64,000 nucleotides of DNA. Source: Parcubacteria group bacterium LiPW_15. GTDB taxonomy: Bacteria > Patescibacteriota > Minisyncoccia > UBA6257 > 2-01-FULL-56-20. The stretch spans positions 337,576 to 401,575 of the forward strand of contig VMER01000001.1 in the NCBI GenBank assembly GCA_007375645.1, given 5' to 3'. Numbering within the stretch: position 1 is the stretch's first letter; each line of letters starts with the position of its first letter. The notes under the pieces were generated by a model that worked only from the letters and a program-made list of their open reading frames with translations, was not told the DNA's origin and made no database searches. The translations under genes and the position numbers were made by a program. This document shows, one piece after another, positions 20,400 to 59,487 of the stretch.

Positions 20400-20406
20400 C
20401 AGGACT

Positions 20407-30998: not shown

Positions 30999-31259
30999 TT
31001 ACGGATGAAAAGCGGGTTTGGATTTTATTAGATCCAGCTTTTTGCTTCTTTCCCAGCTTTTGATTTCCGCCTCCCGCTTCAGGGCGGAACTTCTGGTCGG
31101 GTGTTTTTCGGTATAAACGATTTTCTTGGCTCCGTGCGCCGAGGTATATCCCCCGCCCTTTCTGTCTTTATGCTCCACAAATCTCCGTTTTAAGTCGGTC
31201 GTAATTCCCGTATACAAACTGCCATCAGCGCATTTGAGAATGTAAACAAAATATAACAT
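30999..31259 (-). CDS. GIY-YIG nuclease superfamily protein (UPF0213-like)
   Basis: 86 aa; YFVYILKCADGSLYTGITTDLKRRFVEH. Confidence 0.85.
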   Translation of the reverse strand: MLYFVYILKCADGSLYTGITTDLKRRFVEHKDRKGGGYTSAHGAKKIVYTEKHPTRSSALKREAEIKSWERSKKLDLIKSKPAFHP

Positions 31260-31266
31260 CCGATTC

Positions 31267-32160
31267 CTATTCTTTTATCAGAATAATGCCCGCGATAAGA
31301 ACAAGAAATAAGAAAAGTTTTTTTATAACTTTTTTCCGATGAAGATCCTCTTTGAAAAACTGCGGGAAGAAGCCATGACCGATCCAAGCGTAGACCAGAA
31401 TAAAAAAGGGCGATGCCATTGTAATACCTTTTACTACGCTTATTGAAGTGAGTGAGATCGCGGAACTTTCCGTAAACTGCCCAAGAAAGGTGAAGAGTTC
31501 CTCAAGCAGGAAGAGGGGTGAAAGCTTTACGAAAAGAGGAAACATCGCGCCAATATTTTTCCTGGCTTTCCCCGAAATTAAAACAGAAACTCCAAGAACT
31601 AAGCCTATCATCGCCTCCCCGCCGATCGCCGTGCTTACGCTTACTCCGCTTTTAAACAAAAGTTTCAGAAAAATACCTTCAAATGCCAGAAGGAGCGCTG
31701 CCGCACCTATGTACCACATAGCCTTACTGAACTGAAAACGTTTATGCGCATGGTGCAAAGCGAGGGCAATGACGCTGACAACCACCAGCAGGATGCCCGC
31801 ATATTGGGTAAAATTCAAAACCTCACCCACGATAAGAAAAGCGAGAACTGGTATGAAAACCCTGCTAATAGCGAAGAACGAAACCACAACGGACGTATCA
31901 TCAACCTTGAGGCCGCGATAATATGGGTAAAGATAGCCGACTCCGACGAAACCAAGCAGAATGAAAATTGGGATCGTGTGGAGCGGAGGAAGCGCCGGCG
32001 GAGAGAACGCGAAAAGGATAGGCACGAAAACAAGGTTGAAAAGCGAAGTGTAAAAGATAAGCGTTAGGGGGTGCTTGAATTCCTTATTATCCAAGAACTC
32101 ATCAAAAATCTCCGCAACCGCATAGAAAGCCGGAGCCAGAAAGGCATACAAAAGCCACAT
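31267..32160 (-). CDS. DMT/EamA-like transporter
   Basis: about 298 aa; roughly 10 TM helices; start taken at the internal Met MWLLYAF. Confidence 0.65.
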   Translation of the reverse strand: MWLLYAFLAPAFYAVAEIFDEFLDNKEFKHPLTLIFYTSLFNLVFVPILFAFSPPALPPLHTIPIFILLGFVGVGYLYPYYRGLKVDDTSVVVSFFAISRVFIPVLAFLIVGEVLNFTQYAGILLVVVSVIALALHHAHKRFQFSKAMWYIGAAALLLAFEGIFLKLLFKSGVSVSTAIGGEAMIGLVLGVSVLISGKARKNIGAMFPLFVKLSPLFLLEELFTFLGQFTESSAISLTSISVVKGITMASPFFILVYAWIGHGFFPQFFKEDLHRKKVIKKLFLFLVLIAGIILIKE

Positions 32161-32302
32161 TGAGAAAATTATATCACTAAACGAATTATCCGCGCAGCAC
32201 ACCAAAAACACCTGCCGCGAAGAGCAAATGTTTTGGTGTTCTGCGATTGGAACCTTAATCTAGCATTCTTAGTCCCCCCTTTTTTTCTCCCGTGGCGGTT
32301 CG

Positions 32303-33490
32303 TTAATGCTGAATCCAATTCCCATCGTCATCGTAATTCTGTGATCCACTTATCCCGCAGGCATTCCACACTAGATCAAGTGCGGGTTTTAGAGTTGTGT
32401 GGACAGGTTCATCGTACGTCCCAAAAGTAACTTCGGGGCAATAAAGATTTTTCTCACGTATCGGATGAACATCAGATGTAGATTTAAAAGTGGTGCTAGA
32501 AAAAGACATCCCTTTCACGTCAGTTAGGGTAATAAACACGAATATCGGAGGATTGATCTCCAATGAATGTAGGGCATTGAGATAATTCTTGGTGTAGTTA
32601 ATGATTTGTTCCTCAATAACATAAATTGGAATTACGCTCTCTCTTTCCGTCTTGCTGCGCGCCAAGATAGATGTTTCGACTGCCTCGATCGCGCCGTTTC
32701 GAAATAATTGAACGTAAGATCGCGCAATTTCTTTTTGGCCCGCCCCGGTATGTGCAATTACTCCGGCTACATTGATTTGCGGACGGAACCAAGCATCTGT
32801 AAACATGGGCCGCAAATTATTTAAATCGCTGTAAAGTTGAAAAAGCTTTTCTGCGGGTATGTTGAGAGTTGTAGAGAATGATTCGAGGGGGACAAGGTGT
32901 AAAATAATCTTGCTTCCTCCTACAACAGTGATTGGCGCATTGTTGGCTTCTATTTCCATTGTCCGTTCCATCCGAAAATCTTTTATACGTCTTGAAACAG
33001 TTTCGGATAAGGTAAACTGTTCGCGCAATTCGGAAACATCGAGTGAATACTTACCAGCGGCTCCTCGAGCATAAAACTTGTCGTGACCTGCAAAAATAAC
33101 CCTATGAGGTTTAATCCAGCTTTGCTTTACGCGGACGATAACCAGATATTTGGAATTATCAATTGGGATTGATCTAATGGAGTACTGAATTCTTGGATCC
33201 AGACCATTCTGGATCATTCCATCCATTCGCCTTACTTCAGCGTCGACATCAGGAATTTCAACACCCAGTATTTCCACTGGCAATCCGGCATCTTCCTTGA
33301 TGCCATAAATTAAGTCTCCTCCGATGGTGTTCGAAAAGGATGACACATCAGCAAGAAACTCTTTTTTTGAGGCATCATTTCCTCCTGGCAATTCTTGTTT
33401 ATATTCAATTGACTTACCCTCGGCAACGGAGTTGGAGATTAGTGAGTTAATATCTGCTATCTCAATGTCCTCAAGTTTTTTAGCAATCAT
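32303..33490 (-). CDS. Schlafen/AlbA_2-like putative nucleic-acid-binding protein (divergent recG-C-terminal-like family)
   Basis: 395 aa; N-terminal EGKSIEYKQEL..ADVSSFSNTIGGDLIYGI matches the AlbA_2 signature; region is low GC (about 40%). Confidence 0.7.
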   Translation of the reverse strand: MIAKKLEDIEIADINSLISNSVAEGKSIEYKQELPGGNDASKKEFLADVSSFSNTIGGDLIYGIKEDAGLPVEILGVEIPDVDAEVRRMDGMIQNGLDPRIQYSIRSIPIDNSKYLVIVRVKQSWIKPHRVIFAGHDKFYARGAAGKYSLDVSELREQFTLSETVSRRIKDFRMERTMEIEANNAPITVVGGSKIILHLVPLESFSTTLNIPAEKLFQLYSDLNNLRPMFTDAWFRPQINVAGVIAHTGAGQKEIARSYVQLFRNGAIEAVETSILARSKTERESVIPIYVIEEQIINYTKNYLNALHSLEINPPIFVFITLTDVKGMSFSSTTFKSTSDVHPIREKNLYCPEVTFGTYDEPVHTTLKPALDLVWNACGISGSQNYDDDGNWIQH

Positions 33491-33613
33491 ATATAAATCT
33501 TATTCCGAATAGGACGGTTTTTAAATACTTCGCTCAGATACCTCACGCCTAAAACCACACTATGTCAACGCGTCTCGAGCACGTTCAACCTGGCGACAGA
33601 ACTGGGAACGTTT

Positions 33614-34232
33614 TCAATGTGAAATCAGTTTTTTAATCTCTTCAAAAAATTGTTCATTATTCTTGAAAATTAACGATTTCATACCAAGATTTTCTTGTTT
33701 GTCATCTATAAAAACGCTGTCTTCTGGTTTCACTTTGAGTTTTTCGAGAATTGACATAAAACACTTCTTATCTGGTTTTTTTAGTCCGTCGTCGCACGAT
33801 ATTTCCAGCGCATCAAAATCTCTATAATATTTCTTAGGTATAAGAACATTTTTGGATAAATGAAATTGGGTTGAAAGAACGCCCAATACATACCCTTTAA
33901 CCTTTAGATCTAAAATAAATTTATATAATATTTCGTTTTCAATTACATTCTTTGCATAAAGATTCTCGAATAGCTCCTCAACTTTTTTCCCCGGAACACT
34001 CAGCACTTGTGAGTAAAGCATTAACGTTTCCTCTTTCGATATTTCTCCGATAGAAGATTTTCGATATATATCAATAGTGTCTTTAAAAATCTCATCTGGG
34101 GATTTGTTAACGCCCTCTAATAAAAAACAAGCTTCTTTATATGAGGTGAGAAGGTTTTTTTTCTTCTCTTTTCTTTATATCTTTTGGAAATAAAAGAACG
34201 CCGCCAACATCAAATATCAAAGCTTTTATCAT
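33614..34232 (-). pseudogene. HAD-superfamily hydrolase disrupted by a frameshift in an A8 run (plus-strand T8 at 34155..34162)
   Basis: N-terminal 31 aa ORF MIKALIFDVGGVLL (motif I) ends in a stop; the C-terminal ORF carries motifs III/IV (K..DD); A7 would restore about 206 aa. Confidence 0.6.
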
Positions 34233-34343
34233 TGCTGGCCTCCTCGGTCGCGGATATTTGAAAATCCTTACCCCACAAGCGTCCCAGAGGATTCCCTAAG
34301 TTTATCAAAACGACGCTCCTCGGACGGGAAATCCTGCTAGGAA

Positions 34344-35192
34344 TTAAATCTTCTCAGCTACAAATGCTCCGTAGATGGCTATTTTCCTTTCGAATAAACT
34401 TTTCTGATAGAAAGAAGAAAGATCGCGAGGAAACCCGAACTTTGATTGGATATACTTTATGGGATAGGCGAATAGGCTCTGTCGATATATTTTCTCGCTG
34501 GATTTCTTTATCTTGTCATGCAGGTCGTGGAAAACTATTTTTTTAAATCCTGCCTGCGCCAAATCCTCTGAAAATCCTTCCTTCGTTGCGAAATCCGGCA
34601 CCGCCCAGCCTTCAACGCATTTGGCATAGATATTGCCCTCTTCCGCGCTTAAATTCTCTTTGGTTCGGAATGCGTCTATCACGCAGATTTTCCCGCCGGG
34701 TTTCGTAATGCGATAGGCCTCATTCAGAAAATCTATCTTCTTGTGAGCGTGGCAAATAGACTCGATGCCGAATACTTTTGAGAATGTTGCGTCTTTGAAA
34801 TTCGTGTGGATATAATCTTGCTGCGAGAAATTCAGGAGGCGCTCCACGGCTGATCGCGAAGCTCTCTCAGTGGCTATCTTCAACTGCACCCCTGAAAGAG
34901 TGATACCTTCAACTCTCGCGCCCGTTCGTTCTGCGATGTACATACTGGTGCCTCCGACACCGCAACCTGCGTCCAAGACGGTGTCGCTCGGATCTATGGC
35001 TAATTCATTTACGACGAATTTGTTCGTATTCGTGATAGCTTCAGGCAGGTTCTTGGTGTCCTCGTACCAAAGTCCATAATGCAGTGCTGTAGGCGACCAG
35101 AAGTGGGTGTACGTGAATTGGTGCGTGTCGTAGTATTTGATTATATCCTCGTTCGAAATAAGCATCTTACCCAAGTTTTGAATAGTAGGCAT
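34344..35192 (-). CDS. class I SAM-dependent methyltransferase
   Basis: 282 aa; motif I VLDAGCGVGG. Confidence 0.8.
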   Translation of the reverse strand: MPTIQNLGKMLISNEDIIKYYDTHQFTYTHFWSPTALHYGLWYEDTKNLPEAITNTNKFVVNELAIDPSDTVLDAGCGVGGTSMYIAERTGARVEGITLSGVQLKIATERASRSAVERLLNFSQQDYIHTNFKDATFSKVFGIESICHAHKKIDFLNEAYRITKPGGKICVIDAFRTKENLSAEEGNIYAKCVEGWAVPDFATKEGFSEDLAQAGFKKIVFHDLHDKIKKSSEKIYRQSLFAYPIKYIQSKFGFPRDLSSFYQKSLFERKIAIYGAFVAEKI

Positions 35193-35260
35193 AAAACTAT
35201 TCTACCAGAAACCCAAAGCTAGTTTTAACGCTCCTCGGACGCCTAGAGCTCTGCTCAAGG

Positions 35261-35335
35261 TGGCTGCGGGACCTGGATTCGAACCAAGATACTCGCCTTC
35301 AGAGGGCGATGTCCTACCATTAGACGATCCCGCAA
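35261..35335 (-). tRNA. tRNA-Gln (anticodon CTG), CCA encoded
   Basis: reverse complement folds as TGCGGGA..; anticodon loop CTCTGAA; T-loop TTCGAAT. Confidence 0.8.
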
Positions 35336-35361
35336 TTTGTTTGCGCAGCCTGCTACCATTA

Positions 35362-35381
35362 CCTGCCTGCCGGCAGGCAGG
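35362..35381. repeat. perfect 20 bp palindrome CCTGCCTGCCGGCAGGCAGG (copy 1 of 3)
   Basis: exact match to copies at 51029 and 58962. Confidence 0.9.
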
Positions 35382-35444
35382 GATGACCCGGCAATTGCGT
35401 ATTAACGCACATCAATATTACCCAAATAAGCGTTTTTTGGCAAC

Positions 35445-35472
35445 AAAAAAGGCCTCCGCTTTCGCAGAGGCC
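35445..35472 (-). terminator. intrinsic terminator after CDS 35480..35860
   Basis: ggcctc-cgctttcgc-agaggcc hairpin followed by ttttttgttg on the minus strand. Confidence 0.65.
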
Positions 35473-35479
35473 GTTCGCC

Positions 35480-35860
35480 CTAATAGCTACCGAAAAGGCT
35501 CGCTCGCCCCGCGACCTCGAGAGTCTTGGTGATCTCCTTTGCCGTCTTGGCATCCCGCTTCCGGACGACCTCGAACATCTTCTCGAGGACTTCCCGAGGA
35601 CCCAGAATGTGGATGTCTTTCCGCTCCACCGGATAGAAGGGCTGGGACTTGCCCGATGGCCAGTAGCCCTTCTCCGGCCAGACGAGATACAGCGCCTTGT
35701 CGGGCTCGTCGTATTCTTCGACGACACCGATGACATTCCATACGTCCACCCAGACGACGTCGCCGCCTTTGAGCTCGACCCATACGTCCGCCTGGACGAC
35801 TTCGCCGCCCCTGAGCTCGGCCTCCACGACTTCCTGTTTTTCTTTGATCTCTTCCACGAT
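35480..35860 (-). CDS. hypothetical GC-rich protein with an internal tandem repeat (..EVVQADVWVEL / KGGDVVWVDVW..), probable GTG start
   Basis: about 125 aa; GGAGG RBS; imperfect roughly 39 nt tandem DNA repeat. Confidence 0.45.
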   Translation of the reverse strand: MVEEIKEKQEVVEAELRGGEVVQADVWVELKGGDVVWVDVWNVIGVVEEYDEPDKALYLVWPEKGYWPSGKSQPFYPVERKDIHILGPREVLEKMFEVVRKRDAKTAKEITKTLEVAGRASLFGSY

Positions 35861-35922
35861 GCACCTCCTAGTTCTCGCCGGATTATAACAAAAAAACAAC
35901 CTCCGTCAAAGCTGTTTTTTTG

Positions 35923-36849
35923 TTACGACCTCAGATATTTCCTGACCGCGATGAAACTCGAAACCATTGCCACGCCCACGCCGAAAACCAGTTGATACAG
36001 GAAAAGTTTGAAGATGTTGGCGTAGATGTATCCGTTAAAACTGAAACCGGGCAGGGCCACCTCGGAGGAAGCGGATTGCGAGAATATCCAAGGCACCAAA
36101 CCCACAAGCACAAGCATGGCTACGGTACTGATAACCGCGGAAAAGAATCCGGCGATTAGTCCTTCTATAAGATATGGACCGCGCACGAAAACATTGGAAG
36201 CCCCCACGAGGCGCATAACGCCTATCTCGTCCCGGTTGGAATAAATTGCCAAACGAACGGTGTTATAAACCACCAGGCCGGCTATCAAGGTCAAAATTAT
36301 TGTGAGAAGCAATCCGGCGCGGTTTACCCCGCTTATGAGAGAAGAAAGTTTTTCGATAGCCGTTTGACTCTGCGCAAAATTAACTTTTTCAATGTATTGA
36401 ACAAGCGCGTCGGCCTTCAGATATTGGTCAATCTTCTCATATTGATCAGGGCTGTAGGCTTTAATGTTTAAGGAACCCTGAAACGGGTTCGCGCCCAGCT
36501 GGTCCAAGGATTGGATGATTGCCGGGTCATTCGCGTGTTCCGCTTTAAAAATTTCGAGCGCCTTATCGCTTGAAATATATTCGACGCTCTTTACCTCTGG
36601 AAGTCCCTCTAGGGCCGTCTGAATACTTAAAATATTGTCTTCCGGAGCCGTGTTTTTAAAATAAACGCTGATATCTATCTTGTCTTTCAAAAAAGAAACC
36701 GCTTTGTCGGTCGCCACGTTCGCCAAGATAAGCCCCGAAAACACCATGAGCGACAAAGTCATAATAGCGATCATCGCGGTGGACAAAAGACCGTTCCGCC
36801 AGAAATTCTTGAAACCGTAATGAATTATTCTCGAAAGTATTGTGAACAT
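35923..36849 (-). CDS. ftsX: cell division ABC transporter permease FtsX
   Basis: 308 aa; FtsX topology and family similarity. Confidence 0.9.
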   Translation of the reverse strand: MFTILSRIIHYGFKNFWRNGLLSTAMIAIMTLSLMVFSGLILANVATDKAVSFLKDKIDISVYFKNTAPEDNILSIQTALEGLPEVKSVEYISSDKALEIFKAEHANDPAIIQSLDQLGANPFQGSLNIKAYSPDQYEKIDQYLKADALVQYIEKVNFAQSQTAIEKLSSLISGVNRAGLLLTIILTLIAGLVVYNTVRLAIYSNRDEIGVMRLVGASNVFVRGPYLIEGLIAGFFSAVISTVAMLVLVGLVPWIFSQSASSEVALPGFSFNGYIYANIFKLFLYQLVFGVGVAMVSSFIAVRKYLRS

Positions 36850-36879
36850 AAAAGGTCAAGTTTATTTTAACACAAAGCC

Positions 36880-37563
36880 TTAAACCAAAATGTACTTCCC
36901 TCTCTCTTCGTCGCGGATAATGCGCCCGCGATCCAAGGTCACCACGCGACGGTCCAAATTATTCACGATCTCTTTATCGTGAGTCGCGAGTATCAAAGTC
37001 GTGCCCAGCTGATTTATTTTTTGGAGAAGGTTGATAATTTCCCAAGTGTTGAAAGGATCCAAGTTTCCTGTCGGCTCATCGGCGATTATAACTTCCGGCC
37101 TGTGCACCATCGCCCGAGCGATAGCCACTCTTTGTTTTTCACCGCCCGAAAGTTCATGCGGAAAATTGGCAAGCTTGTCGGAGAGACCCACCATATCCAA
37201 AACCTGAGGCACCAGCTCTTTTATCTCCTCCTGCGAACGGCCAGCGGCTTCAAGCGCAAAGGCAACGTTCTCGTAGGTGTTCTTCATGGGCAATAGTTTG
37301 AAATCCTGGAAGACAACGCCTACATGGCGCCTGAAAGGAGGCAATTCTTTGGAACCCAGTTTATTGACCTCGTACTGGCCGAAAAACACCCGCCCTTTGG
37401 AAGGTTTTTCCTCGCCGGTCAAAAGTTTGATTATCGTGGTTTTCCCGGAACCTGACTTCCCCACCAGACACACGAACTCTCCCGGATCCACCTTGAAGGT
37501 TATATCCTCCAGAGCCGGGGCGCTGCCGTTATAAAGCTTCGAAACGCTTTGAAAAACAATCAT
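36880..37563 (-). CDS. ftsE: cell division ABC transporter ATP-binding protein FtsE
   Basis: 227 aa; Walker [18 protein letters not shown], Walker [12 protein letters not shown]. Confidence 0.95.
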
Positions 37564-37653
37564 TGGACTGGTTTGTAATTGGTGGTGAGTAGTAAGTAAA
37601 TACCCAAATGAGCAAACAAATACAAGGTGAAACCTTGTCTATTGATAGTACCA

Positions 37654-38688
37654 CTAAGCAGGCAGTTTTTCAATTTCTGCTTCAATAAATTTATCCAAAT
37701 CTCCCGCAAGCACTTCGTCCACCCTTGCAGTTTCTTCCTCTGTTCTGTGGTCCTTCACCATTTGATAAGGATTTAAAACGTAAGAACGGAGTTGGTTTCC
37801 CCATTCCGGCTTAACATTTATCCTTAGCTCCTTTATCTCTTTCACTTTATTCGCCTCCATAAGCTGTAAAAGTTTGGCTTTTAAAAGATTCAGGGCCTTT
37901 TCCCGATTCTGCGCCTGGCTACGTTCCGCCCGGCTCGCAGCCACAATGCCCGTCGGAATATGCGCAACCCGGACGGCGGTCTCCACCTTATTCACATTCT
38001 GTCCCCCGGGGCCTCCGGCGCGTGAAAATTCAAATTTCAGATCAGCATCCGGGATCTCCAATTTCTGCGCGTCTACTTGCGGAAGATCTGGCAAGACTTC
38101 AACCAAAGCAAAGGAGGTGTGCCTAAGTTTCTTCGGAGAAAATGGAGAGATCCTCACAAGCCGATGCACACCGGATTCTCGACGCAGATAACCATAGGCG
38201 TTCGCTCCCGCAATTTCCAAAGTCGCGCTCCGGATATTATCGTCCAGAACCTTTGTCTTCCAGCCGCGGCGCTTGGCATAGCCCTCATACATTTTAAAAA
38301 GCATAGTGGCCCAATCTTCCGCATCTTCGCCGCCGGCTCCGGGGAAAATAGAAATTATCGCAGACTGTTTGTCGTGCGTACCCGTAAAAAGTTCCCGGAG
38401 CTCCAGACTCCTGAATATTCTTCGGGCTTCAAAAAAATCTCCTTCGCTTCCCGCTTCCGCTTTTTGCACGGCGGAAAGGACTTCCTCATAGCGAGCCATT
38501 ACGTCCTGCAGCTCGCCCATCTCTTTTATTTTTTGATCCGCCGCTTCGCGGTTGGACCAGAATCCGGGCTCGGACATCTCTGCTTCAAGTTCCGTGAGTT
38601 TCTGCCGTTTTTCGAAAACTCCAAGTTTTTCGCCCAAAGCGGCGACTTCATTTTTCAGATCCTCGATTGTTTCGAGCTCGTGAGTCAT
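37654..38688 (-). CDS. prfB: peptide chain release factor 2 (contiguous ORF, no programmed frameshift)
   Basis: 345 aa from MTHELE; SPF tripeptide motif; GGQ motif. Confidence 0.9.
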   Translation of the reverse strand: MTHELETIEDLKNEVAALGEKLGVFEKRQKLTELEAEMSEPGFWSNREAADQKIKEMGELQDVMARYEEVLSAVQKAEAGSEGDFFEARRIFRSLELRELFTGTHDKQSAIISIFPGAGGEDAEDWATMLFKMYEGYAKRRGWKTKVLDDNIRSATLEIAGANAYGYLRRESGVHRLVRISPFSPKKLRHTSFALVEVLPDLPQVDAQKLEIPDADLKFEFSRAGGPGGQNVNKVETAVRVAHIPTGIVAASRAERSQAQNREKALNLLKAKLLQLMEANKVKEIKELRINVKPEWGNQLRSYVLNPYQMVKDHRTEEETARVDEVLAGDLDKFIEAEIEKLPA

Positions 38689-38698
38689 TGATCTTTTC

Positions 38699-38772
38699 TG
38701 GAGCCGATGGAGGGAATCGAACCCACGTTTATGCTTTACGAAAGCACCGTTCTGCCATTGAACTACATCGGC
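38699..38772 (-). tRNA. tRNA-Thr (anticodon CGT), CCA encoded
   Basis: reverse complement folds as GCCGATG-TA-GTTC..; anticodon loop TTCGTAA; one U-U mismatch in the T-stem. Confidence 0.7.
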
Positions 38773-38869
38773 AATATTTACTTCCCTGAGTTTAGCCGAA
38801 ACCGATAAAAAACTCCAGATAATCAAAACCTCCGCGGAAGCGGAGGTTTTGATGCTGAAAAAATCATTC

Positions 38870-39346
38870 CTATCCCAGCTTACTCGCAACGTAATTGGTA
38901 AATTCCTGTTCGGTCGGCGGAATGCCACCACTGTCTCCCATGTATTTTTCGTATATACCCTCCAAGACTCCTTCCAGCTTGGCCCGAGCTTCGGCCTCAC
39001 GAGCCTGTTGCTCAACACCGACTGGCTTGTGAAAGCCCATACCTTGTTTCTGAAGATATTTTTCAACGAGAGCATCAATTATCTTCTCTTTTTTTGTCTT
39101 AGTCTCTGTCGGCAATTCTTCTTTCTGCCCATCCAATAAATTTGCGACATAACCAGTAAGCTCCTGTTCGGTCGGCGGAACACCGCCGCTCTCTGTCATA
39201 TATTTCACAAAAATGCCCTCGAGAATACTTTTAAGCTTTGCCCTATCACCAGCCTCACGGCTATATTGCATATCTATCGCGGCATCAGAAAGACCCGCCC
39301 CTGGGAGGCCCCTACCCTGCTCGTGAAGATATTTATCAACGAGCAC
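38870..39346 (-). CDS. hypothetical protein made of two (plus a partial third) roughly 70 aa tandem repeats
   Basis: 158 aa; repeats IDALVEKYLQKQG..GGIPPTEQEFTNYVASKL and LVDKYLHEQG..GGVPPTEQELTGYVANLL; GTG start. Confidence 0.55.
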   Translation of the reverse strand: MLVDKYLHEQGRGLPGAGLSDAAIDMQYSREAGDRAKLKSILEGIFVKYMTESGGVPPTEQELTGYVANLLDGQKEELPTETKTKKEKIIDALVEKYLQKQGMGFHKPVGVEQQAREAEARAKLEGVLEGIYEKYMGDSGGIPPTEQEFTNYVASKLG

Positions 39347-39487
39347 ATCGATTATCTCTTCTTTTTTTTCTTTCTACCGAAGATTTTTCCGTATTGTTCA
39401 TATTTTTATTATACATCCTCCAGTTCGGGAGGAAATGTTTATTGTTCTTAGATTATATCACTTCCTGGCGAAAAGTCAAGGTATCGC

Positions 39488-40324
39488 CTATCCCCCGAAA
39501 GACACGAGGGTTTCTCTTGAATCCTCATTTTCGGGGAGTCCGGACGGATTATCTTTTTTTAAGATCAGCTTTCCGGTGCCTGATTTCGGCGCATCCTTAA
39601 ATTCCAGGTTAGCGGAAAATCGCACATAATCCGTGGTCATCCAATTGCCTTGCGCCGTGGCTATTCCGGTCGCAACGGTTTTCCCATACGGGTCGACCAA
39701 AAGGATCGGAAAGCTCGCTTCAAAAAACCATGTGCCCTTGGCCACGCCCTCAACTTTTAAGGGCGATAGGACCACGCTCCCCCGGAACGGGGTTTCTACG
39801 AAAACCGGCGATTCCTCAAGCTTCCCCGATCTTATCTCAAGATATTTTGATTTGCCCATGGAAGGAGAAGTTGTCATCGGATCTCCTGCGCGTCTCTCGG
39901 CATAATTTGCGATTAAAATCCCGTTTCTTATTTCCATAGTCTGCGGCGCAATGCGGTCACCCAAAAATATCGCGTTAGTCCCCTCATAATTGTCGTCCTT
40001 TTTAAGCGCCGCAACCGCGTAATAAAAAGTTCCGCTGCCTCCCGTGGTTTGGGTGATAAAAAAGCCCACATCTTCCGCTCCATCGCCGTTCAAATCCCCC
40101 TTGGCTTCGTTTCCAAAATAATCAGTAACTATCTTCGCGGCTGAACCGGGAGCGGCTGCCACACCCATGCCGCCAAGCTTGGTTGTGATTCCGCCAACCT
40201 CATAAGAGATGTCTTGATAATTCTCACCGCCGGAAATTTTTGTTTCCATTTTTCTTCCGAACAAAACAAAAGCCGCAACTCCGACGATCAGAACGACAGC
40301 TAAAATTATTAATGTTTTTTTCAT
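39488..40324 (-). CDS. secreted/membrane-anchored protein with C-terminal Ig-like (Gmad2-like) domain
   Basis: 278 aa; N-terminal TM; C-terminal GTWFFEASFPILLVDPYGKTVATG segment. Confidence 0.5.
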   Translation of the reverse strand: MKKTLIILAVVLIVGVAAFVLFGRKMETKISGGENYQDISYEVGGITTKLGGMGVAAAPGSAAKIVTDYFGNEAKGDLNGDGAEDVGFFITQTTGGSGTFYYAVAALKKDDNYEGTNAIFLGDRIAPQTMEIRNGILIANYAERRAGDPMTTSPSMGKSKYLEIRSGKLEESPVFVETPFRGSVVLSPLKVEGVAKGTWFFEASFPILLVDPYGKTVATGIATAQGNWMTTDYVRFSANLEFKDAPKSGTGKLILKKDNPSGLPENEDSRETLVSFGG

Positions 40325-40505
40325 TCTATTTTTTTATTTTTCTTCTTCCTCCCCGAAACCCACGCACCGCCGACAACGCAGGCCAAGAGGGCGATAAAAA
40401 ATCCTATTTCTGCGTCGCTCATAATAAGTTAATTATAGACCCTTGCTTCTCCCGCGGAAAGCGCAGCTGGCGGGCGGCAAACCGACATTGCTGTTTCATA
40501 ATCGG

Positions 40506-41207
40506 TTAATCGGAGAATTTGTTTAGTTTTTTATCAAAAAAATACTTTTTAAAAACTAATATACCTACCCAGATCGCAAAAATAATGAAAACGTATTTAA
40601 TTCCGACAATTTTGAGAGCAGATTCGCCCAACGTGTAAACCAACGCCCCCCAAAACATGTTCCAAAAAATAATTCCGATCGCAGAATACAAAGAGAACTT
40701 ATCGAATGGAACCCTCAATATTCCTGCCGCCGTAGCGGTGAGGGAAGCCAAATTTGGCTCCCAATAACTTAAGAAAACAACGTTCAGTCCCTGTCTCATG
40801 AGTTTTTCCTTTGATTTTTCAATCGACTGAGAAAGGCCGAACCTAACGAGTAACTTATACCATCCGTATTTACCCACCCAATAGTTAAGCGTATAAGAAA
40901 TAAAAAAGGCTAAACAAACAATAAGTACAACTTCCGTTGCCCTTGGTATATCCTTGCCCGCCGAAATAACGCCGAGAAAAATTATAAAACCTCCGGGAAA
41001 ATACTGACCTAACAACAGAAAACCCTCAATAAGAGCTCCGACAAAAACAATCCACAAACCATACTTAGAAAACCACTCTTTGACTATCGCAAGCATTTGA
41101 TCGTCTGAGGGCAAATTAAAAGCCTTCCAGAGAATATACATTGATAGATATATACCCATCAGCACTAACGGTATTGATAAAAATTTTAAAATTTCTTTTA
41201 TTCGCAT
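40506..41207 (-). CDS. DedA/TVP38-family membrane protein
   Basis: 233 aa; DedA family similarity. Confidence 0.8.
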   Translation of the reverse strand: MRIKEILKFLSIPLVLMGIYLSMYILWKAFNLPSDDQMLAIVKEWFSKYGLWIVFVGALIEGFLLLGQYFPGGFIIFLGVISAGKDIPRATEVVLIVCLAFFISYTLNYWVGKYGWYKLLVRFGLSQSIEKSKEKLMRQGLNVVFLSYWEPNLASLTATAAGILRVPFDKFSLYSAIGIIFWNMFWGALVYTLGESALKIVGIKYVFIIFAIWVGILVFKKYFFDKKLNKFSD

Positions 41208-41360
41208 GTTTGTAAATGGTTTTAAATATCAATCTGGCGGGCAACTCGGGTTAAGTGCCCAAACGCTCCAAGCCCCACAAGAATTCTTTGGGGGTCAGAC
41301 AACCCACTTATTTTGAGGCATGTGGGTCGAGTCTTTATGCGAAGGAAGTGCTTACTTAGA

Positions 41361-41963
41361 TTATTCATCCAGGAGCTTATAACCATAACCGCTTTCACTA
41401 CCGGTTCTTACTATGCGATAAAAATTGTATTCCATTTCTCCGCCAGGGTGTCGCACGCCGATACCAAAAACATATGGTTCGGCAGAACTCAAAGTTCCTG
41501 ACTCATACGCTCGTATGACCGATAATAGATCTTCTTCGGATGGGTAGAGCGGCATGGCGCGCCCAGGGTGAGTGTGCACATCACCTAGAAATCCAAATTC
41601 CTTATGCTGGGGAGTGTCTCGCTGAATTTTCTCTACCTGTTTCTTAATAAGTGCTAAGCTGTAGGCAACATTATCAATCTCTTCTTCGTAGGTGCGATGT
41701 CCATCCTCGGCTGTTTCTTGATAAACACCTTTGATTTGAAGATGGACCGATCCATCTGGATTAACTTGTTTTGCTCCGAGTAGCACGCCGAATCGCTCTC
41801 TGCCACTCCTACCATCCCCTAAGGATATAGCGGGCAAGTATTCAACCGCTTCAGGAGCAATTTCAAAAGAAACTCGCAAATTTTCTTTGAGCAGGTCTAT
41901 TCTTGGTTCTTGTTCTTGCCGGAACTTCTCTGCCTGGTGCATGGGAACATTATGGCTTGCCAC
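41361..41963 (-). CDS. JAB/MPN-domain (JAMM-like) metalloprotease family protein
   Basis: 200 aa; HTHPGRAMPLYPSEED fits the H-x-H-x(n)-S-x-x-D JAMM motif. Confidence 0.65.
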   Translation of the reverse strand: MASHNVPMHQAEKFRQEQEPRIDLLKENLRVSFEIAPEAVEYLPAISLGDGRSGRERFGVLLGAKQVNPDGSVHLQIKGVYQETAEDGHRTYEEEIDNVAYSLALIKKQVEKIQRDTPQHKEFGFLGDVHTHPGRAMPLYPSEEDLLSVIRAYESGTLSSAEPYVFGIGVRHPGGEMEYNFYRIVRTGSESGYGYKLLDE

Positions 41964-42250
41964 GAGTCAAAATGGAAATAGGTCGCCCTGCAACCATAAG
42001 CACTCGGATCGGGTCCGATACTGAATACTTACGGCGGAGGCGGTAACCGAATATTTTATATTCTAGTTGCCACCTCTCGCCTCAGCTAAAACAAATTGCC
42101 TTCGACCACTTGTTTTACTCTTCGGCGGAGGGTGCAGGCCGCGGTTACTCGGCATTGCTGTTTTCTAAATTCGCGTTATTCATTAAGAAAACAGGGAAGA
42201 TTCTAATCACGAGGCTCTTTCTAACTCACCGCATTTCCCCAAGAACAAAG

Positions 42251-42336
42251 CGGTGGGGGTGAGATTCGAACTCACGATACCATTTCTGGTATAACGGTTT
42301 TCAAGACCGTCTCCTTCAACCACTCGGACACCCCAC
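42251..42336 (-). tRNA. tRNA-Ser (anticodon TGA), type II with long variable arm
   Basis: reverse complement folds as GGTGGGG-TG-TCC-GAGTGGTTGAA-GGA..; anticodon loop CTTGAAA. Confidence 0.75.
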
Positions 42337-42473
42337 CGCTCTGCACGGGATTGCAATAATCATAAGATGAAATCTCTTGCCCATAAAGACCGGCTTAAAC
42401 TTGTTCGCAAGCCTAGGTAGAGTCAATCGGAACCAACTCTTAAGAAGAGCTGGTTGCCATACTGGGGTTCGGA

Positions 42474-43085: not shown

Positions 43086-43101
43086 ATATTATAAACAAAT
43101 T

Positions 43102-51028: not shown

Positions 51029-51048
51029 CCTGCCTGCCGGCAGGCAGG
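51029..51048. repeat. perfect 20 bp palindrome CCTGCCTGCCGGCAGGCAGG (copy 2 of 3)
   Basis: exact match; lies in a roughly 900 bp ORF-poor region. Confidence 0.9.
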
Positions 51049-57429: not shown

Positions 57430-59487
57430 CTATCCGATGAGCCTTAGGAATTCCTTTTCGCTTAGGATTTTGACCCCCAGCTCTTTAGCCTTCTTATACT
57501 TACTCCCCGGCTCGGCACCGGCCACGAGATAAGAGGTTTTGGAGCTAACCGATTCGGAAACGTCTCCCCCAAGTTCTCTTATCTTTTGTTTCGCAAGCTC
57601 GCGAGACATGGAATCCATGGAACCGGTGATGACAAAAGAAAGGTCTTTCAGTTTTTCGACTTTCACCGAAGGCGGCGCGAGAACAATCACTACCCCGGCG
57701 GCTTCAAGCTTTCCCAAAAGATGAGTATTCCTTTTTTCCTTGAACCATTCGTAAATGCTTTCGGCGACTTTCGGACCAATATCTTTTATCTCTTGTAATC
57801 GCTCCAGCGAAAGTCCGCCGTAAAAGTTCAAAAATTTGGAAATGCTCAAGCGCCCACTCTTCTTCTCCGGAAATATATTCGCAAGGGTTATCGCAGTTTC
57901 TTCGCCCACATGAATTATTCCTAAGGAGTAAATAAAGCGTGAAAGAGGGACTGATCTTTTCGCTTCGACTTCTTTTATAACATTTTCCGCCGACTTTTCA
58001 CCGAAACGAGGCAGGGCTTCCACATCTCCTTGTTTCAGGGTAAAAATGTCCGCCGCATCGACTATCAAGCCCTCGTCCAATAATCTATCTATTATTTTTG
58101 GACCCAAACCGTCCAAATTAAATCCTCCGCGGGATATAAAATGATAAAGCTGCTCCCTGTGTCGCGCGCCGCAATACTTGTTGGAACATTTATAAGCCAC
58201 CCCGTCACGAATGACCCCGGACCCGTCTACGGGACAGTTCTCCGGCATCTTGAACTTTTTTTCCTTGCCGGTCCGGAACTCCGGCAAAACCTTGGTTATT
58301 TGCGGGATAACGTCTCCGGCCCGGGAAACGATAACTGTGTCGCCAACCCTTACCCCAAGCCGTTCTATCTCATCCGCATTATGAAGGCTCGCGTGGGTTA
58401 TGGTCACGCCGCCCACGTTCACCGGACGCATCACCGCGACCGGCGTCAGCGCCCCAGTACGACCGACCTGAACCTCTATCGCCTCCACAATGGTCGTGGC
58501 TTCCCTCGGAGAAAACTTGTAGGCGATTCCCGCGCGCGGAGTTTTGCCGATTATCCCCGCTTCTTCGTATGTGGCGTTGTCGTTTATGGAAATAACTATG
58601 CCGTCTATTTCATAAGCAAGGCGCTCTCTCATTTTTAGAACGTCTTTATGAAATTCGAATATCTCTTCTATATTTCTCGCAACTATGCCGTGCGGATTGG
58701 TTTTGAGCCCGTATTTATTGAGTTCGGCGTATTCCTCGGATTTTGTTCTGTATCCGGGAGTAACAACATCGTAGGCGTAAAAATCCAATTTCCTTGAGGC
58801 GGTTATCTTCGGATCCAATTGCCGTATGGAACCGGCGGCGACATTGCGAGGATTCGCATAGGGTTTTTCTCCTTTTTTCTCCTGCTCGCGGTTCAGCCTC
58901 GCAAATTCTTTTTTGGTCAGGAAGGTTTCCCCGCGAACGATGAGGCGCTTGGGATATCCGCCCTGCCTGCCGGCAGGCAGGTCCCCTCTCTCGAGTCTTA
59001 AGGGTATCGCGTCAATAGTTTTCAAATTTTCCGTGACATCTTCGCCGATCATGCCGTCTCCGCGCGTGGACCCGGAAACAAAGAGGCCATCTTCGTAGAT
59101 AAGCTCCATCGCGAGACCGTCCATTTTTAGATCGCAATAAAATCCGTTTTTTGCGAAACTAGTTTTGGGTCCGAAATAATTTTTTAGACGCGTGAGCCAT
59201 TCCTGAATATCCTGCGGGGAAAATGCGTCGTTTAGGGAGATCATCCGCGTTCCGTGCCTGACTTTTTTAAAAGCGGAAAGCGGCTTTCCCCCAACCCGTT
59301 GAGTCGGTGAATCTTTGGCAATAAATTCCGGATAGCGCGATTCCAGATCAAAAAGCTCCTTCTTTAAAGAGTCCAGGGCCCCTTCGGAAATAAGAGATTT
59401 ATCCAAAACATGGTACGCGTAGCGGTACTTATTTATTTCCGTCTTTAGTTTTTCGATACGCTTCTTGGCCTCATCCTTAGCCGTCAT
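57430..59487 (-). CDS. ligA: NAD-dependent DNA ligase
   Basis: 685 aa; adenylation KxDG region, OB fold, Zn finger, HhH and BRCT; carries an in-frame 7 aa insertion LPAGRQG encoded by the 20 bp palindrome. Confidence 0.95.
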   Translation of the reverse strand: MTAKDEAKKRIEKLKTEINKYRYAYHVLDKSLISEGALDSLKKELFDLESRYPEFIAKDSPTQRVGGKPLSAFKKVRHGTRMISLNDAFSPQDIQEWLTRLKNYFGPKTSFAKNGFYCDLKMDGLAMELIYEDGLFVSGSTRGDGMIGEDVTENLKTIDAIPLRLERGDLPAGRQGGYPKRLIVRGETFLTKKEFARLNREQEKKGEKPYANPRNVAAGSIRQLDPKITASRKLDFYAYDVVTPGYRTKSEEYAELNKYGLKTNPHGIVARNIEEIFEFHKDVLKMRERLAYEIDGIVISINDNATYEEAGIIGKTPRAGIAYKFSPREATTIVEAIEVQVGRTGALTPVAVMRPVNVGGVTITHASLHNADEIERLGVRVGDTVIVSRAGDVIPQITKVLPEFRTGKEKKFKMPENCPVDGSGVIRDGVAYKCSNKYCGARHREQLYHFISRGGFNLDGLGPKIIDRLLDEGLIVDAADIFTLKQGDVEALPRFGEKSAENVIKEVEAKRSVPLSRFIYSLGIIHVGEETAITLANIFPEKKSGRLSISKFLNFYGGLSLERLQEIKDIGPKVAESIYEWFKEKRNTHLLGKLEAAGVVIVLAPPSVKVEKLKDLSFVITGSMDSMSRELAKQKIRELGGDVSESVSSKTSYLVAGAEPGSKYKKAKELGVKILSEKEFLRLIG
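58962..58981. repeat. perfect 20 bp palindrome CCTGCCTGCCGGCAGGCAGG (copy 3 of 3), inside the ligA coding sequence
   Basis: exact match; ligA remains a continuous ORF across it. Confidence 0.9.

What the first reader, a model, noticed from the sequence alone, without database searches (positions are those of the whole stretch)
35336..35900. tRNA-Gln flanked by palindrome copy 1 and a GC-rich terminator-bounded gene with tandem repeats
Immediately upstream of tRNA-Gln on its strand lie the 20 bp palindrome (35362), a GC-hairpin terminator (35445-35472) and a GC-rich CDS of about 125 aa. That CDS contains an imperfect roughly 39 nt tandem duplication (..EVVQADVWVEL / KGGDVVWVDVW..). Together with the low-GC Schlafen-like/HAD island on the other side of the methyltransferase (32303-34340), the tRNA-Gln neighbourhood looks like an accessory hotspot.
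Basis: seen in the sequence. Interest (0 to 1): 0.5.

Follow-up and report, generated by a model that had tools for sequence, protein, structure and literature searches.

The report
tRNA-Gln locus with selfish-element palindrome scar
Next to a glutamine tRNA gene in a tiny-genome (Patescibacteria) bacterium lie a real small gene of unknown function and a 20-base palindrome that splits a leftover copy of the tRNA's start, and this same palindrome recurs letter for letter across many bacterial phyla and phages, often beside a small nuclease gene.

Summary
tRNA-Gln(CUG) is at 35261-35334(-). The 20-nt palindrome is at 35362-35381. A strong terminator is at 35451-35472. The GC-rich 125-aa CDS is at 35480-35857(-), and its tandem duplication is 42 nt, not 39.

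The CDS is a real gene. It has its own promoter, RBS and terminator. It belongs to a small unannotated family of about 24 clusters, mostly on short unclassified metagenome contigs. The predicted fold is an SH3/KOW-like barrel plus a long helix. Its place between ftsX and tRNA-Gln recurs in two relatives, so it is not a fresh foreign insert. Its excess GC is a family trait.

The palindrome sits inside a decayed 31-nt duplicate of the 5' end of tRNA-Gln. The layout [tRNA 1..X]-hairpin-[X+1..N]-(small GIY-YIG nuclease gene)-[complete tRNA] recurs in several phyla and in phage contigs. The window holds the version without the nuclease gene. The exact 20-mer occurs in more than 120 genome stretches and 35 viral stretches. 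It is also read in frame as LPAGRQ inside LigA (this window), FtsK and GatB.

Genes beyond tRNA-Gln differ in every relative, but there is no integrase and no att repeat. The "accessory hotspot" reading is therefore partly supported. How the palindrome spreads is unknown.

The parts
35261..35334 (-). tRNA-Gln(CUG), the complete gene
   Evidence: ARAGORN; Rfam RF00005, 60.8 bits
35335..35342 (-). 8-nt spacer (AAACAAAT) between the tRNA fragment and the complete tRNA. It occupies the position held by a GIY-YIG ORF in related cassettes.
   Evidence: Alignment A4; architecture comparison
35343..35361 (-). Decayed duplicate of tRNA-Gln positions 13-31 (TAATGGTAGCAGGCTGCGC). The first 9 nt are identical to the real tRNA.
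   Evidence: With the palindrome deleted, a blastn match to a tRNA-Gln spans the junction, E = 2.9e-5; 0 of 507 control junctions do so.
35362..35381 (.). 20-nt perfect palindrome CCTGCCTGCCGGCAGGCAGG (copy 1). It is inserted between positions 12 and 13 of the tRNA-Gln 5' fragment.
   Evidence: As RNA it forms an 8-bp stem with a CCGG loop, about -15 kcal/mol.
35382..35393 (-). Decayed duplicate of tRNA-Gln positions 1-12 (TGCCGGGTCATC). It matches the window's tRNA at 9 of 12 positions. By eye it matches the L139/L211 tRNA-Gln allele at 10 of 12.
35415..35443 (-). Promoter-like site TTGCCA-17-TAATAT. It would start the pre-tRNA-Gln transcript about 15 nt before the fragment, putting the fragment and palindrome in the 5' leader (inferred).
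   Evidence: Consensus scan, 9 of 12 matches. No functional evidence.
35441..35472 (-). Intrinsic terminator of the 125-aa gene: stem-loop at 35451-35472 and T-run at 35441-35450
   Evidence: -22 kcal/mol, z = -3.9
35480..35857 (-). CDS of 125 aa (ORF125). Predicted fold is an SH3/KOW-like beta-barrel (residues about 34-84) plus a long C-terminal helix (87-123). It belongs to a small unannotated family found mostly on unclassified metagenome contigs; three members lie beside Patescibacteria-type prfB-ftsE-ftsX clusters.
35738..35821 (-). 42-nt (14-codon) tandem duplication inside the CDS. It copies the family's first conserved strand motif (GDVVW). The upstream copy lies outside the region that family members match.
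   Evidence: TRF; 35 of 42 identical, all 5 differing codons nonsynonymous, 0 of 2000 shuffles; family matches start at residue about 29
35864..35869 (-). Ribosome-binding site AGGAGG, 6 nt before the GTG start
   Evidence: Read from the sequence
35882..35909 (-). Sigma-70-type promoter-like site TTGACG-16-TATAAT with an extended -10 TG. It matches 11 of 12 positions and lies upstream of ORF125.
35885..35925 (-). 18-bp A/T-rich hairpin after ftsX, probably the ftsX terminator. It overlaps the ORF125 promoter.
   Evidence: -18.9 kcal/mol, z = -7.6
35923..36849 (-). ftsX, the last gene of the conserved prfB-ftsE-ftsX block. Synteny with the closest relative ends at its stop codon.
   Evidence: Pfam
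31267..35192 (-). Variable cargo downstream of tRNA-Gln: SAM methyltransferase (34344-35192), N-terminally truncated HAD remnant (33614-34021), Schlafen/AlbA_2 protein (32303-33490) and EamA transporter (31267-32211)
   Evidence: Pfam; GC profile; absent from L157, L139 and L211
30999..31259 (-). Stand-alone GIY-YIG nuclease gene of the YhbQ/UPF0213 type (here called type B). It lies directly next to tRNA-Gln in L157 and L161. It is not the palindrome-linked subtype.
   Evidence: Pfam
58962..58981 (.). Palindrome copy 3, read in frame as DLPAGRQG inside a length-variable surface loop of the NAD-dependent DNA ligase gene (57430-59487, minus strand)
51029..51048 (.). Palindrome copy 2, in a noncoding stretch next to tRNA-Met that also holds a tRNA-like element and a duplicate of that element's 3' end

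Best explanation
This is a tRNA-Gln(CUG) locus in a Patescibacteria genome. It has three layers.

1. ORF125 is a resident, independently transcribed gene. It encodes a small cytoplasmic protein with a predicted SH3/KOW-like barrel and a long helix. Its most likely role is binding RNA or a partner in the transcription or translation machinery; this is inferred from the fold only. A recent 14-codon tandem duplication added a probably disordered N-terminal copy of its first strand.

2. The palindrome lies inside a 31-nt decayed duplicate of the tRNA's own 5' end, just upstream of the complete tRNA. This is the nuclease-less form of a recurrent cassette: [tRNA 1..X]-20-nt hairpin-[X+1..N]-(about 80-aa GIY-YIG nuclease ORF)-[complete tRNA]. 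The cassette is best read as a selfish GIY-YIG element that targets tRNA genes and restores the gene it splits. In the window the nuclease ORF has been lost, or the short form was moved in trans. The fragment and hairpin are probably transcribed as the pre-tRNA leader and removed by RNase P (inferred).

3. The DNA beyond the tRNA is a variable cargo slot, but not an integrase-type island.

Shown: the anatomy, the protein family, the synteny, the cassette architecture, the link between the palindrome and GIY-YIG genes, and the cross-phylum spread.

Inferred: mobility, nuclease specificity, transcription and processing, and the function of ORF125.
For: ORF125:
- Expression signals are present.
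- 24 homologous clusters share a conserved core, PKxGDVVW..GVIG..YD..L.L.WP..F.PV..DI.VLSP.EVLEKM.
- The AF2 model built from the alignment is confident, pLDDT 85.5.
- The same genomic slot is occupied in L139 and L211.

Palindrome and cassette:
- The flanks of copy 1 align in register to tRNA-Gln positions 1-12 and 13-31.
- With the palindrome deleted, 14 of 170 junctions align across the junction to a tRNA, against 0 of 507 controls. The matched tRNA is usually the one just downstream.
- The full cassette with the exact palindrome occurs in L038 (WWE3, tRNA-Lys), L107 (tRNA-Gly), L119 (Chitinophagales, tRNA-Leu), L202 (viral) and L126 (a Patescibacteria relative, tRNA-Ser).
- Variant or different hairpins fill the same position in L211, L040, L078 and L215.
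- 7 of 10 GIY-YIG ORFs in palindrome loci lie within 160 nt of a palindrome; 0 of 20000 permutations reach this.
- The palindrome-linked nucleases are only 36-46% identical to each other, while the 20-mer is identical.
- A perfect compensatory variant, CCTGCCTACCGGTAGGCAGG, occurs in L216.
- The exact 20-mer occurs in at least 120 genome stretches across many phyla, including isolates and long-read assemblies, and in 35 viral stretches. About 0.5 is expected by chance in the genome collection (my estimate).

Variable slot.
Against: - No palindrome-linked (type A) GIY-YIG gene is in this window. The window's GIY-YIG gene is the other subtype.
- Most palindrome copies are solo. Only about 8 of about 170 lie next to a GIY-YIG gene and about 14 of 170 lie in tRNA fragments. 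The nuclease may therefore be one passenger among several rather than the driver.
- The insertion position X in the tRNA varies from 11 to 31. No target motif and no target-site duplication was found.
- No empty-site or filled-site pair was found, so mobility is not demonstrated.
- A 20-nt insert cannot by itself keep a reading frame. The in-frame copies (LigA, FtsK, GatB) need extra bases or selection that remains unexplained.
- Six other ORF125 family members were looked up on short contigs. The five with 100-430 nt of downstream sequence show no tRNA there, so the link to tRNA-Gln is limited to one lineage.
- The ORF125 function rests on weak fold similarity only.
Confidence: 0.55

Rival explanations
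1. This is a classical integrase-mediated genomic island integrated at tRNA-Gln. ORF125 and the methyltransferase/HAD/Schlafen block are its foreign cargo, and the palindrome is part of an att site.
For: Composition is atypical on both sides of the tRNA. Gene content differs among relatives.
Against: No integrase or recombinase domain was found in the ORFs of 30999-35857. No repeat of the tRNA 3' end occurs anywhere in the window. The duplicated piece is the 5' end and lies upstream of the tRNA. The ORF125 slot is shared with L139 and L211. The excess GC is a family trait.
Confidence: 0.08
2. The palindrome is a host cis-element, such as the binding site of a dimeric regulator, a processing or stability hairpin, or a replication or segregation signal. 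Host selection keeps it, its closeness to GIY-YIG genes and tRNA fragments is secondary, and it is not mobile.
For: The sequence is strictly conserved across phyla while neighbouring proteins diverge. A compensatory variant keeps the dyad symmetry. Copies are depleted from long ORFs: 33% lie in ORFs of at least 200 aa, against 71% of random positions.
Against: A host signal should not sit inside loops of LigA, FtsK and GatB, inside decayed tRNA fragments, or in phage genomes. No conserved flanking context was found. None of 120 close LigA homologue clusters has it, so it looks like a lineage-specific gain.
Confidence: 0.15
3. The palindrome spreads on its own as a minimal REP- or MITE-like repeat, driven by an unidentified enzyme or by break repair. 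It merely accumulates where it is tolerated: tRNA pseudo-fragments, 5' leaders of small selfish genes, and surface loops.
For: Most copies are solo. One viral contig has at least 6 copies and no GIY-YIG gene. Real genes always read it in the benign LPAGRQ frame, as expected if selection filters insertions.
Against: Hairpins appear at the same place in the cassette even when their sequence differs (L040, L211, L215). This points to a role within the cassette rather than passive accumulation. The 7 of 10 proximity to GIY-YIG ORFs is far above chance.
Confidence: 0.17
4. The features are artefacts. The palindrome is a library or assembly artefact, and the GC-rich ORF is a chance open frame.
For: Many carriers are low-coverage MAGs. 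GC-rich DNA gives long ORFs in several frames.
Against: The palindrome occurs in isolates, long-read assemblies and contigs with coverage up to 1883x. A second assembly, L001, is identical to the window across copy 1. Reading frames and tRNA folds are preserved around it. Taxa are non-random: all isolates found are Bacteroidota. ORF125 has 24 homologous clusters and a confident fold.
Confidence: 0.03

Closest known systems
Freestanding GIY-YIG homing endonucleases in tRNA gene clusters (phage T4 SegB; PMC2330249, PMC13096335)
   Same: A small GIY-YIG nuclease gene lies among or beside tRNA genes and behaves as a selfish cassette. It also occurs in phage contigs (L202, L215).
   Different: The nucleases here are about 80-aa single-domain UPF0213/YhbQ-like proteins with no separate DNA-binding domain. 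The cassette duplicates the tRNA 5' end and carries a conserved 20-nt palindrome. The palindrome also occurs alone and inside protein genes. Activity is untested.
REP/REPIN elements with RAYT transposases
   Same: Short GC-rich palindromes are scattered through a genome, mostly outside genes, and are linked to a single small nuclease-type gene.
   Different: REPs are species-specific, carry a conserved 5' GTAG and often occur as inverted pairs. Their enzyme is a Y1 HUH transposase. Here the same 20-mer occurs across many phyla and phages as single copies, and the linked gene is a GIY-YIG nuclease.
Rickettsia palindromic elements (in-frame insertions in protein genes; from my own knowledge)
   Same: A palindromic repeat is inserted in frame in conserved housekeeping genes and tolerated as an extra surface peptide.
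   Different: RPEs are about 100-150 bp and restricted to one genus. This element is 20 nt, always translated as LPAGRQ in the verified genes, and found across phyla.
Integrative elements that target tRNA genes and restore them with a duplicated tRNA segment
   Same: A partial tRNA duplicate flanks the inserted DNA, and the functional tRNA is kept.
   Different: Those elements use tyrosine or serine integrases and usually duplicate the 3' end. Here the 5' end is duplicated, no integrase is present, and a hairpin splits the displaced fragment.
KOW, Tudor and Sm SH3-like barrels (NusG/Spt5 KOW domains), compared with ORF125
   Different: There is no sequence-level match to KOW or any other Pfam family. 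A 37-residue C-terminal helix follows the barrel. The protein is free-standing and about 100-125 aa.

Membership tests
Intrinsic (Rho-independent) terminator | GC-rich stem-loop followed directly by a U-run, just after a stop codon | tested here: met
   9-bp stem with 7 G-C pairs, then TTTTTTGTTG, starting 8 nt after the ORF125 stop. Energy -22 kcal/mol, z = -3.9.
Integrase-type tRNA-linked genomic island | Integrase or recombinase gene next to the tRNA | tested here: not met
   Pfam scan of the seven ORFs between 30999 and 36849 found methyltransferase, HAD, SLFN_AlbA_2, EamA, GIY-YIG and FtsX, and no integrase.
Integrase-type tRNA-linked genomic island | Direct repeat of the tRNA 3' end at the far boundary | tested here: not met
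   The 25-nt 3' end of tRNA-Gln matches only itself in the window, allowing up to 3 mismatches.
Integrase-type tRNA-linked genomic island | Atypical composition and variable presence among relatives | tested here: met
   HAD stretch GC is 0.30, z about -3.9. The block is absent from L157, L139 and L211.
KOW domain family (NusG/Spt5/L24), for ORF125 | Match to the KOW sequence motif or Pfam model | tested here: not met
   No Pfam family at E <= 0.1 for ORF125. No KOW hit in any of 25 family members.
KOW domain family (NusG/Spt5/L24), for ORF125 | SH3-like five-stranded barrel fold | tested here: inconclusive
REP/RAYT (REPIN) system | Conserved 5' GTAG tetranucleotide and paired inverted copies | tested here: not met
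   No conserved flank beyond position -1, which is A in 41% of copies. The copies are single.
REP/RAYT (REPIN) system | Linked Y1 (HUH) transposase gene | not tested
   No dedicated search was made. Unbiased clustering of ORFs within 1.5 kb of palindromes recovered GIY-YIG and four-helix-bundle proteins, and no transposase cluster.
MITE | Terminal inverted repeats plus a target-site duplication of fixed length | tested here: not met
   The 20-mer is itself two 10-nt inverted halves. However, 74 of 128 copies have no flanking direct repeat and 38 have 1 nt. tRNA fragments rejoin exactly once the 20 nt are removed.
Freestanding GIY-YIG homing cassette | GIY-YIG ORF next to the element | tested here: not met
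   Not met at the window's tRNA-Gln, where an 8-nt spacer stands in place of the ORF. Met in related cassettes L038, L107, L119, L202, L126 and L211.
Freestanding GIY-YIG homing cassette | Site-specific cleavage of the cassette-free allele, and copying into it | not testable with these tools
   Needs biochemistry or strain-level presence/absence data.
Group I intron in a Patescibacteria tRNA gene (PMC13011429) | Match to the group I intron covariance model, splitting a tRNA at the anticodon loop | tested here: not met
   No Intron_gpI hit at gathering or permissive thresholds around any palindrome copy. The 20 nt lie in the D-arm of a fragment.

The most novel reading that the evidence does not exclude
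CCTGCCTGCCGGCAGGCAGG, with close compensatory variants, is the cis-acting core of a previously undescribed, ultra-small mobile element. A subfamily of about 80-aa stand-alone GIY-YIG nucleases recognises it as a dyad or hairpin. It spreads both with the nuclease gene, into tRNA genes that it rebuilds, and alone. It has crossed at least ten bacterial phyla and their phages. It survives inside essential genes because all six reading frames lack stop codons and one frame encodes the harmless peptide LPAGRQ.
Probability: 0.3. Interest if true: 0.85.

Novelty: new variant of a known kind. Interest (0 to 1): 0.62.

Why it matters
If the cassette reading holds, a 20-nt sequence kept letter for letter from Patescibacteria to Bacteroidota, Planctomycetota and phages would mark a very small and widespread selfish element.

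- It would give a testable target for the large, uncharacterised UPF0213/YhbQ class of single-domain GIY-YIG proteins.
- It would explain odd "hypothetical" peptides (LPAGRQ, PACRQAG) and extra loops in housekeeping proteins of uncultured bacteria.
- It would explain tRNA pseudo-fragments upstream of tRNA genes that confuse annotation.

Separately, ORF125 defines a small unannotated protein family with a confident predicted fold.

For genome annotation the practical point is this. The tRNA-Gln flank is variable, but it is not an integrase island. High GC alone misled the "foreign gene" call.

Tried and rejected
- **Single-sequence AF2 of ORF125** gave pLDDT 39.5 and was unusable. It was replaced by the alignment-based model.
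- **Word-indexed homologue search** for ORF125 found only the query itself. The exhaustive HMMER search was needed.
- **Family libraries** (Pfam, NCBIfam, PHROGs, PADLOC) and a **PDB profile search** gave nothing significant for ORF125.
- **Six other family members** were looked up. All were on contigs under 2.2 kb, with no tRNA in the 100-430 nt of downstream sequence available for five of them. The idea of a general link between ORF125 and tRNA-Gln was dropped.
- **Exact look-up of the methyltransferase** returned no record.
- **Target-site duplication and target motif** for the palindrome: none found beyond an A bias at position -1. A modest excess of nearby direct repeats, 17 of 155 against 9 of 310, is unexplained.
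- **The palindrome as a spliced mini-intron** was rejected for LigA, because removing 20 nt would shift the frame (sequence).
- **Exact insert length in LigA and GatB** could not be fixed, because the host loops vary in length.
- **Group I intron or known RNA families** around the copies: no Rfam support.
- **Literature search** for the 20-mer, its halves and its peptides found nothing relevant. Searches for GIY-YIG/tRNA cassettes returned only T4 SegB-type precedents.
- **The window's own GIY-YIG gene as the driver** was rejected, because it is the other subtype.
- **Sequencing or assembly artefact** was rejected.
Full report
**1. What is there**

The window is about 48.5% GC and has the look of a Patescibacteria (CPR) genome. 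It has ten tRNA genes in 64 kb. Its LigA and FtsX best matches are Patescibacteria MAGs from groundwater and sediment.

In the direction of transcription they run as follows:
- ftsX at 35923-36849 (Pfam).
- An 18-bp A/T-rich hairpin at 35885-35925 (-18.9 kcal/mol, z = -7.6).
- A promoter-like site TTGACG-16-TATAAT with an extended -10, matching 11 of 12 positions, at 35909..35882.
- AGGAGG, then 6 nt, then a GTG start.
- A 125-codon CDS at 35480-35857.
- A strong intrinsic terminator, with its stem at 35451-35472 followed by a T-run.
- The 20-nt palindrome at 35362-35381.
- tRNA-Gln(CUG) at 35261-35334.

The tandem repeat in the CDS has a period of 42 nt, which is 14 codons, not about 39. The copies match at 35 of 42 positions. 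All five differing codons are nonsynonymous. None of 2000 shuffles reaches this match. A Logan assembly of run SRR8863432 (L001) is identical to window 35274-43177. It covers the palindrome and the CDS.

**2. The GC-rich CDS is a real gene, not a newcomer**

A word-indexed search of 5.8 billion proteins found only the protein itself. Exhaustive HMMER against 1.84 billion cluster representatives found 24 further clusters at E <= 1e-3, seven of them at E <= 1e-10. These proteins are mostly 75-144 aa, with one 294-aa outlier. Matches start at about residue 29 of the query, just after the upstream copy of the duplication.

The alignment shows a conserved core: PKxGDVVWIxGWGGVIG..YD..L.L.WP..F.PV..DI.VLSP.EVLEKM. 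No Pfam, NCBIfam, PHROGs or PADLOC family matches, and a PDB profile search gave nothing significant.

The gene's position is informative. In metagenome loci found through FtsX, L139 (FtsX 66% identical) reads ftsX, then NAD kinase on the opposite strand, then a family member, a terminator and tRNA-Gln(CUG) on the same strand. L211 reads prfB, ftsE, ftsX, NAD kinase, then two tandem family members, then tRNA-Gln further on. The slot between ftsX and tRNA-Gln is therefore shared by three lineages.

Family genes are GC-richer than the rest of their contig in 7 of 9 cases, by about 0.03 to 0.13. The window's excess is +0.11, which fits this pattern. High GC is therefore not evidence of recent import.

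The link to tRNA-Gln is not general. Six other members were looked up, and all sit on contigs under 2.2 kb. The five with 100-430 nt of downstream sequence show no tRNA there. Two loci carry tandem paralogues.

I take ORF125 to be a small cytoplasmic adaptor that binds RNA or a protein partner. Confidence in that function is low.

**3. The palindrome splits a copy of the tRNA's own 5' end**

On the tRNA's strand, the 12 nt before the palindrome (TGCCGGGTCATC) align with tRNA-Gln positions 1-12. The 19 nt after it (TAATGGTAGCAGGCTGCGC) align with positions 13-31, and the first nine are identical. Eight more bases lead to the complete tRNA.

A promoter-like site, TTGCCA-17-TAATAT, lies about 15-20 nt upstream of the fragment. 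The fragment and hairpin would then form the pre-tRNA leader. This is inferred.

To test whether this is general, I deleted the 20-mer from 170 copies found elsewhere and compared the rejoined flanks with tRNAs. Fourteen junctions align across the join, against 0 of 507 control junctions. The match is nearly always to tRNA positions 1..N, with N between 20 and 46. It is usually to the tRNA that lies just downstream in the same locus.

**4. The recurrent cassette**

A jackhmmer search of all ORFs in the palindrome loci found small GIY-YIG domains. Seven of 10 such ORFs in the genome and viral palindrome loci lie within 160 nt of a palindrome. None of 20000 permutations reaches this.

Reading the loci gives one layout: [tRNA 1..X]-palindrome-[X+1..N]-GIY-YIG ORF of about 80 aa-[complete tRNA]. 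The ORF ends 0-20 nt before the tRNA. This layout occurs in:
- L038 (curated WWE3 genome, tRNA-Lys)
- L107 (tRNA-Gly)
- L119 (Chitinophagales, tRNA-Leu)
- L202 (viral contig)
- L126 (a Patescibacteria relative of the window, tRNA-Ser)

These are shown.

The same layout carries other hairpins in four loci:
- L211: tRNA-Gln, with a 38-nt palindrome-like nested hairpin.
- L040: tRNA-Val, with an unrelated 34-nt GC-rich hairpin.
- L078: tRNA-Met, with a 19-nt variant.
- L215: viral, tRNA-Arg, with a 20-nt variant.

These are shown. Versions without the nuclease ORF, like the window's, occur in L031, L084, L005 and L016.

The linked nucleases form a subtype with the C-terminal motif EARKREKYLKSGxGRE, which I call type A. 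They are related to UPF0213 proteins of known structure, 1ywl and 1zg2. They are only 36-46% identical to one another, while the 20-mer is identical.

The window's own GIY-YIG gene (30999-31259) belongs to the other subtype, with the motif REAEIKSW. It is not linked to the palindrome, although it sits directly beside tRNA-Gln in L157 and L161.

A phage tRNA-Met carries the palindrome as a long variable arm (L195). One phage tRNA region has three palindrome-like hairpins, one of them a perfect compensatory variant (L216).

**5. Spread of the palindrome**

By my estimate about 0.5 would be expected by chance in 596 Gb.

Carriers include:
- many Patescibacteria classes
- Bacteroidota, including the cultured isolates Winogradskyella echinorum, Flagellimonas yonaguniensis, Longitalea luteola, Aquiflexum lacus, Agriterribacter humi and Aestuariivivens sediminis
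- Omnitrophota and Planctomycetota
- Thermodesulfovibrionales and Bdellovibrionales
- Elusimicrobia, Verrucomicrobia, Ignavibacteria and Chloroflexi
- MAGs labelled Gammaproteobacteria

Long-read assemblies and high-coverage contigs are among them. The 20-mer also occurs in 35 IMG/VR stretches, one contig holding at least six copies. Relatives of the window carry it (L126 three copies, L139 one) or one-mismatch variants (L143, L157).

The flanks share nothing except an A bias at position -1, and there is no consistent target-site duplication.

Copies are depleted from long ORFs: 33% lie in ORFs of at least 200 aa, against 71% of random positions. All six reading frames of the palindrome lack stop codons. 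In genes verified by Pfam it is always read as LPAGRQ. These genes are LigA (this window), FtsK, GatB, a sortilin/BNR protein and a PMT_2 glycosyltransferase.

In LigA the peptide lies in a loop whose length varies widely among 120 homologue clusters, and none of them has it. E. coli LigA shows an 8-residue gap exactly there. Removing 20 nt would break the frame. In these genes the palindrome is therefore translated, and the true insert must be 21 or 24 nt, or insertion was accompanied by a small deletion. The variable loops prevented a decision.

Full-text searches for the sequence, its halves and its peptides found nothing relevant.

**6. The "hotspot" claim**

Gene content around tRNA-Gln differs in every relative.
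- L122: FtsX is 99% identical in protein and 90% in DNA. Similarity stops at the ftsX stop codon, and a small membrane-protein gene follows. L123 has the same arrangement.
- L157: ftsX is followed after 43 nt by an inverted tRNA-Gln, then the type B GIY-YIG gene, then an SDR gene.
- L139 carries ArsR, thioredoxin, ArsP and DUF2703 genes after tRNA-Gln. L211 carries a type A GIY-YIG gene and Mrr_cat.

The window's cargo is a SAM methyltransferase, an N-terminally truncated HAD followed by about 320 nt of noncoding DNA, a Schlafen/AlbA_2 protein and an EamA transporter. It includes the lowest-GC DNA of the window.

There is no integrase and no repeat of the tRNA 3' end. The region is variable, but it is not a classical island.

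**7. Verdict**

The most interesting result lies in the palindrome. It is a strictly conserved, cross-phylum 20-mer tied to a cassette built from a tRNA fragment, a hairpin, a GIY-YIG gene and a complete tRNA. I could not find this cassette described in the literature.

Its anatomy and statistical associations are shown. Its mobility and the role of the nuclease are inferred.

Noticed in passing
window 58962-58981 (in ligA, 57430-59487, minus strand): Palindrome copy 3 is translated in frame as DLPAGRQG in a hypervariable loop of NAD-dependent DNA ligase. E. coli LigA has an 8-residue gap exactly there. None of 120 close homologue clusters carries the peptide.
   Followed up: yes
window 50540-51130: Palindrome copy 2 (51029) lies in a noncoding stretch beside tRNA-Met. 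A tRNA-like element with a CAU anticodon is at 50622-50693 on the plus strand. It gives a weak tRNA-Sec model hit of 33.5 bits, below threshold, and ARAGORN does not call it. Its 3' end is duplicated in degenerate form at 50935-50964.
   Followed up: partly
window 50739-50954 and 57149-57256; also L139 2354-2456 and L157 4163-4242: A conserved noncoding element of about 100 nt occurs next to tRNA-Met and, inverted, next to tRNA-Asp. It recurs beside tRNAs in relatives. The copy at 57241-57265 ends in a T-arm-like GTTCGAGTCCGGC. No Rfam family matches, including group I intron. It may be related to the intron-bearing tRNA genes reported for Patescibacteria (PMC13011429).
   Followed up: partly
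window 33614-34343: The HAD ORF matches only the C-terminal half of the HAD profiles, so the N-terminal catalytic motif is missing. About 320 nt of noncoding DNA follow it. It looks like a decaying gene, and it is the lowest-GC DNA of the window (0.30).
   Followed up: partly
window 20301-20700: This is the highest-GC stretch of the window (0.68 in 300-nt windows), higher than the ORF125 peak. It was not examined.
   Followed up: no
window 56719-56764: A 46-nt near-palindrome with 23-nt arms, 83% complementary and no spacer. It is unrelated in sequence to the 20-mer.
   Followed up: no
window 37654-39078: The longest ORF call for prfB (474 aa, TTG start) runs across tRNA-Thr (38699-38772). The true start must therefore lie further downstream. 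The Logan gene call of 424 aa also overlaps the tRNA.
   Followed up: no
L061 3861-4142 (Thermodesulfobacteriota MAG): The palindrome plus a type A GIY-YIG domain lie in frame inside a gene that, by eye, looks like a type I restriction specificity subunit (hsdS), between its two repeated halves. The whole is one 714-codon open frame.
   Followed up: partly
L195 2284 and L216 (viral contigs): In L195 a phage tRNA-Met carries the exact palindrome as a long variable arm, and ARAGORN still calls it. In L216 a phage tRNA region downstream of a GIY-YIG gene has three palindrome-like 20-mers, one of them the perfect compensatory variant CCTGCCTACCGGTAGGCAGG.
   Followed up: partly
L211 5001-5842 and L210 504-1264: ORF125 family genes occur as tandem paralogue pairs in two loci. 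The window instead has an internal 14-codon duplication.
   Followed up: partly
Palindrome loci (for example L109 2243-2662): ORFs that resemble, by eye, the 'four-helix-bundle / 23S rRNA intervening-sequence' protein type recur within 1.5 kb of palindromes in 5 loci. Apart from GIY-YIG, this was the only recurrent neighbour family not obviously phage-derived or a spurious high-GC frame.
   Followed up: no
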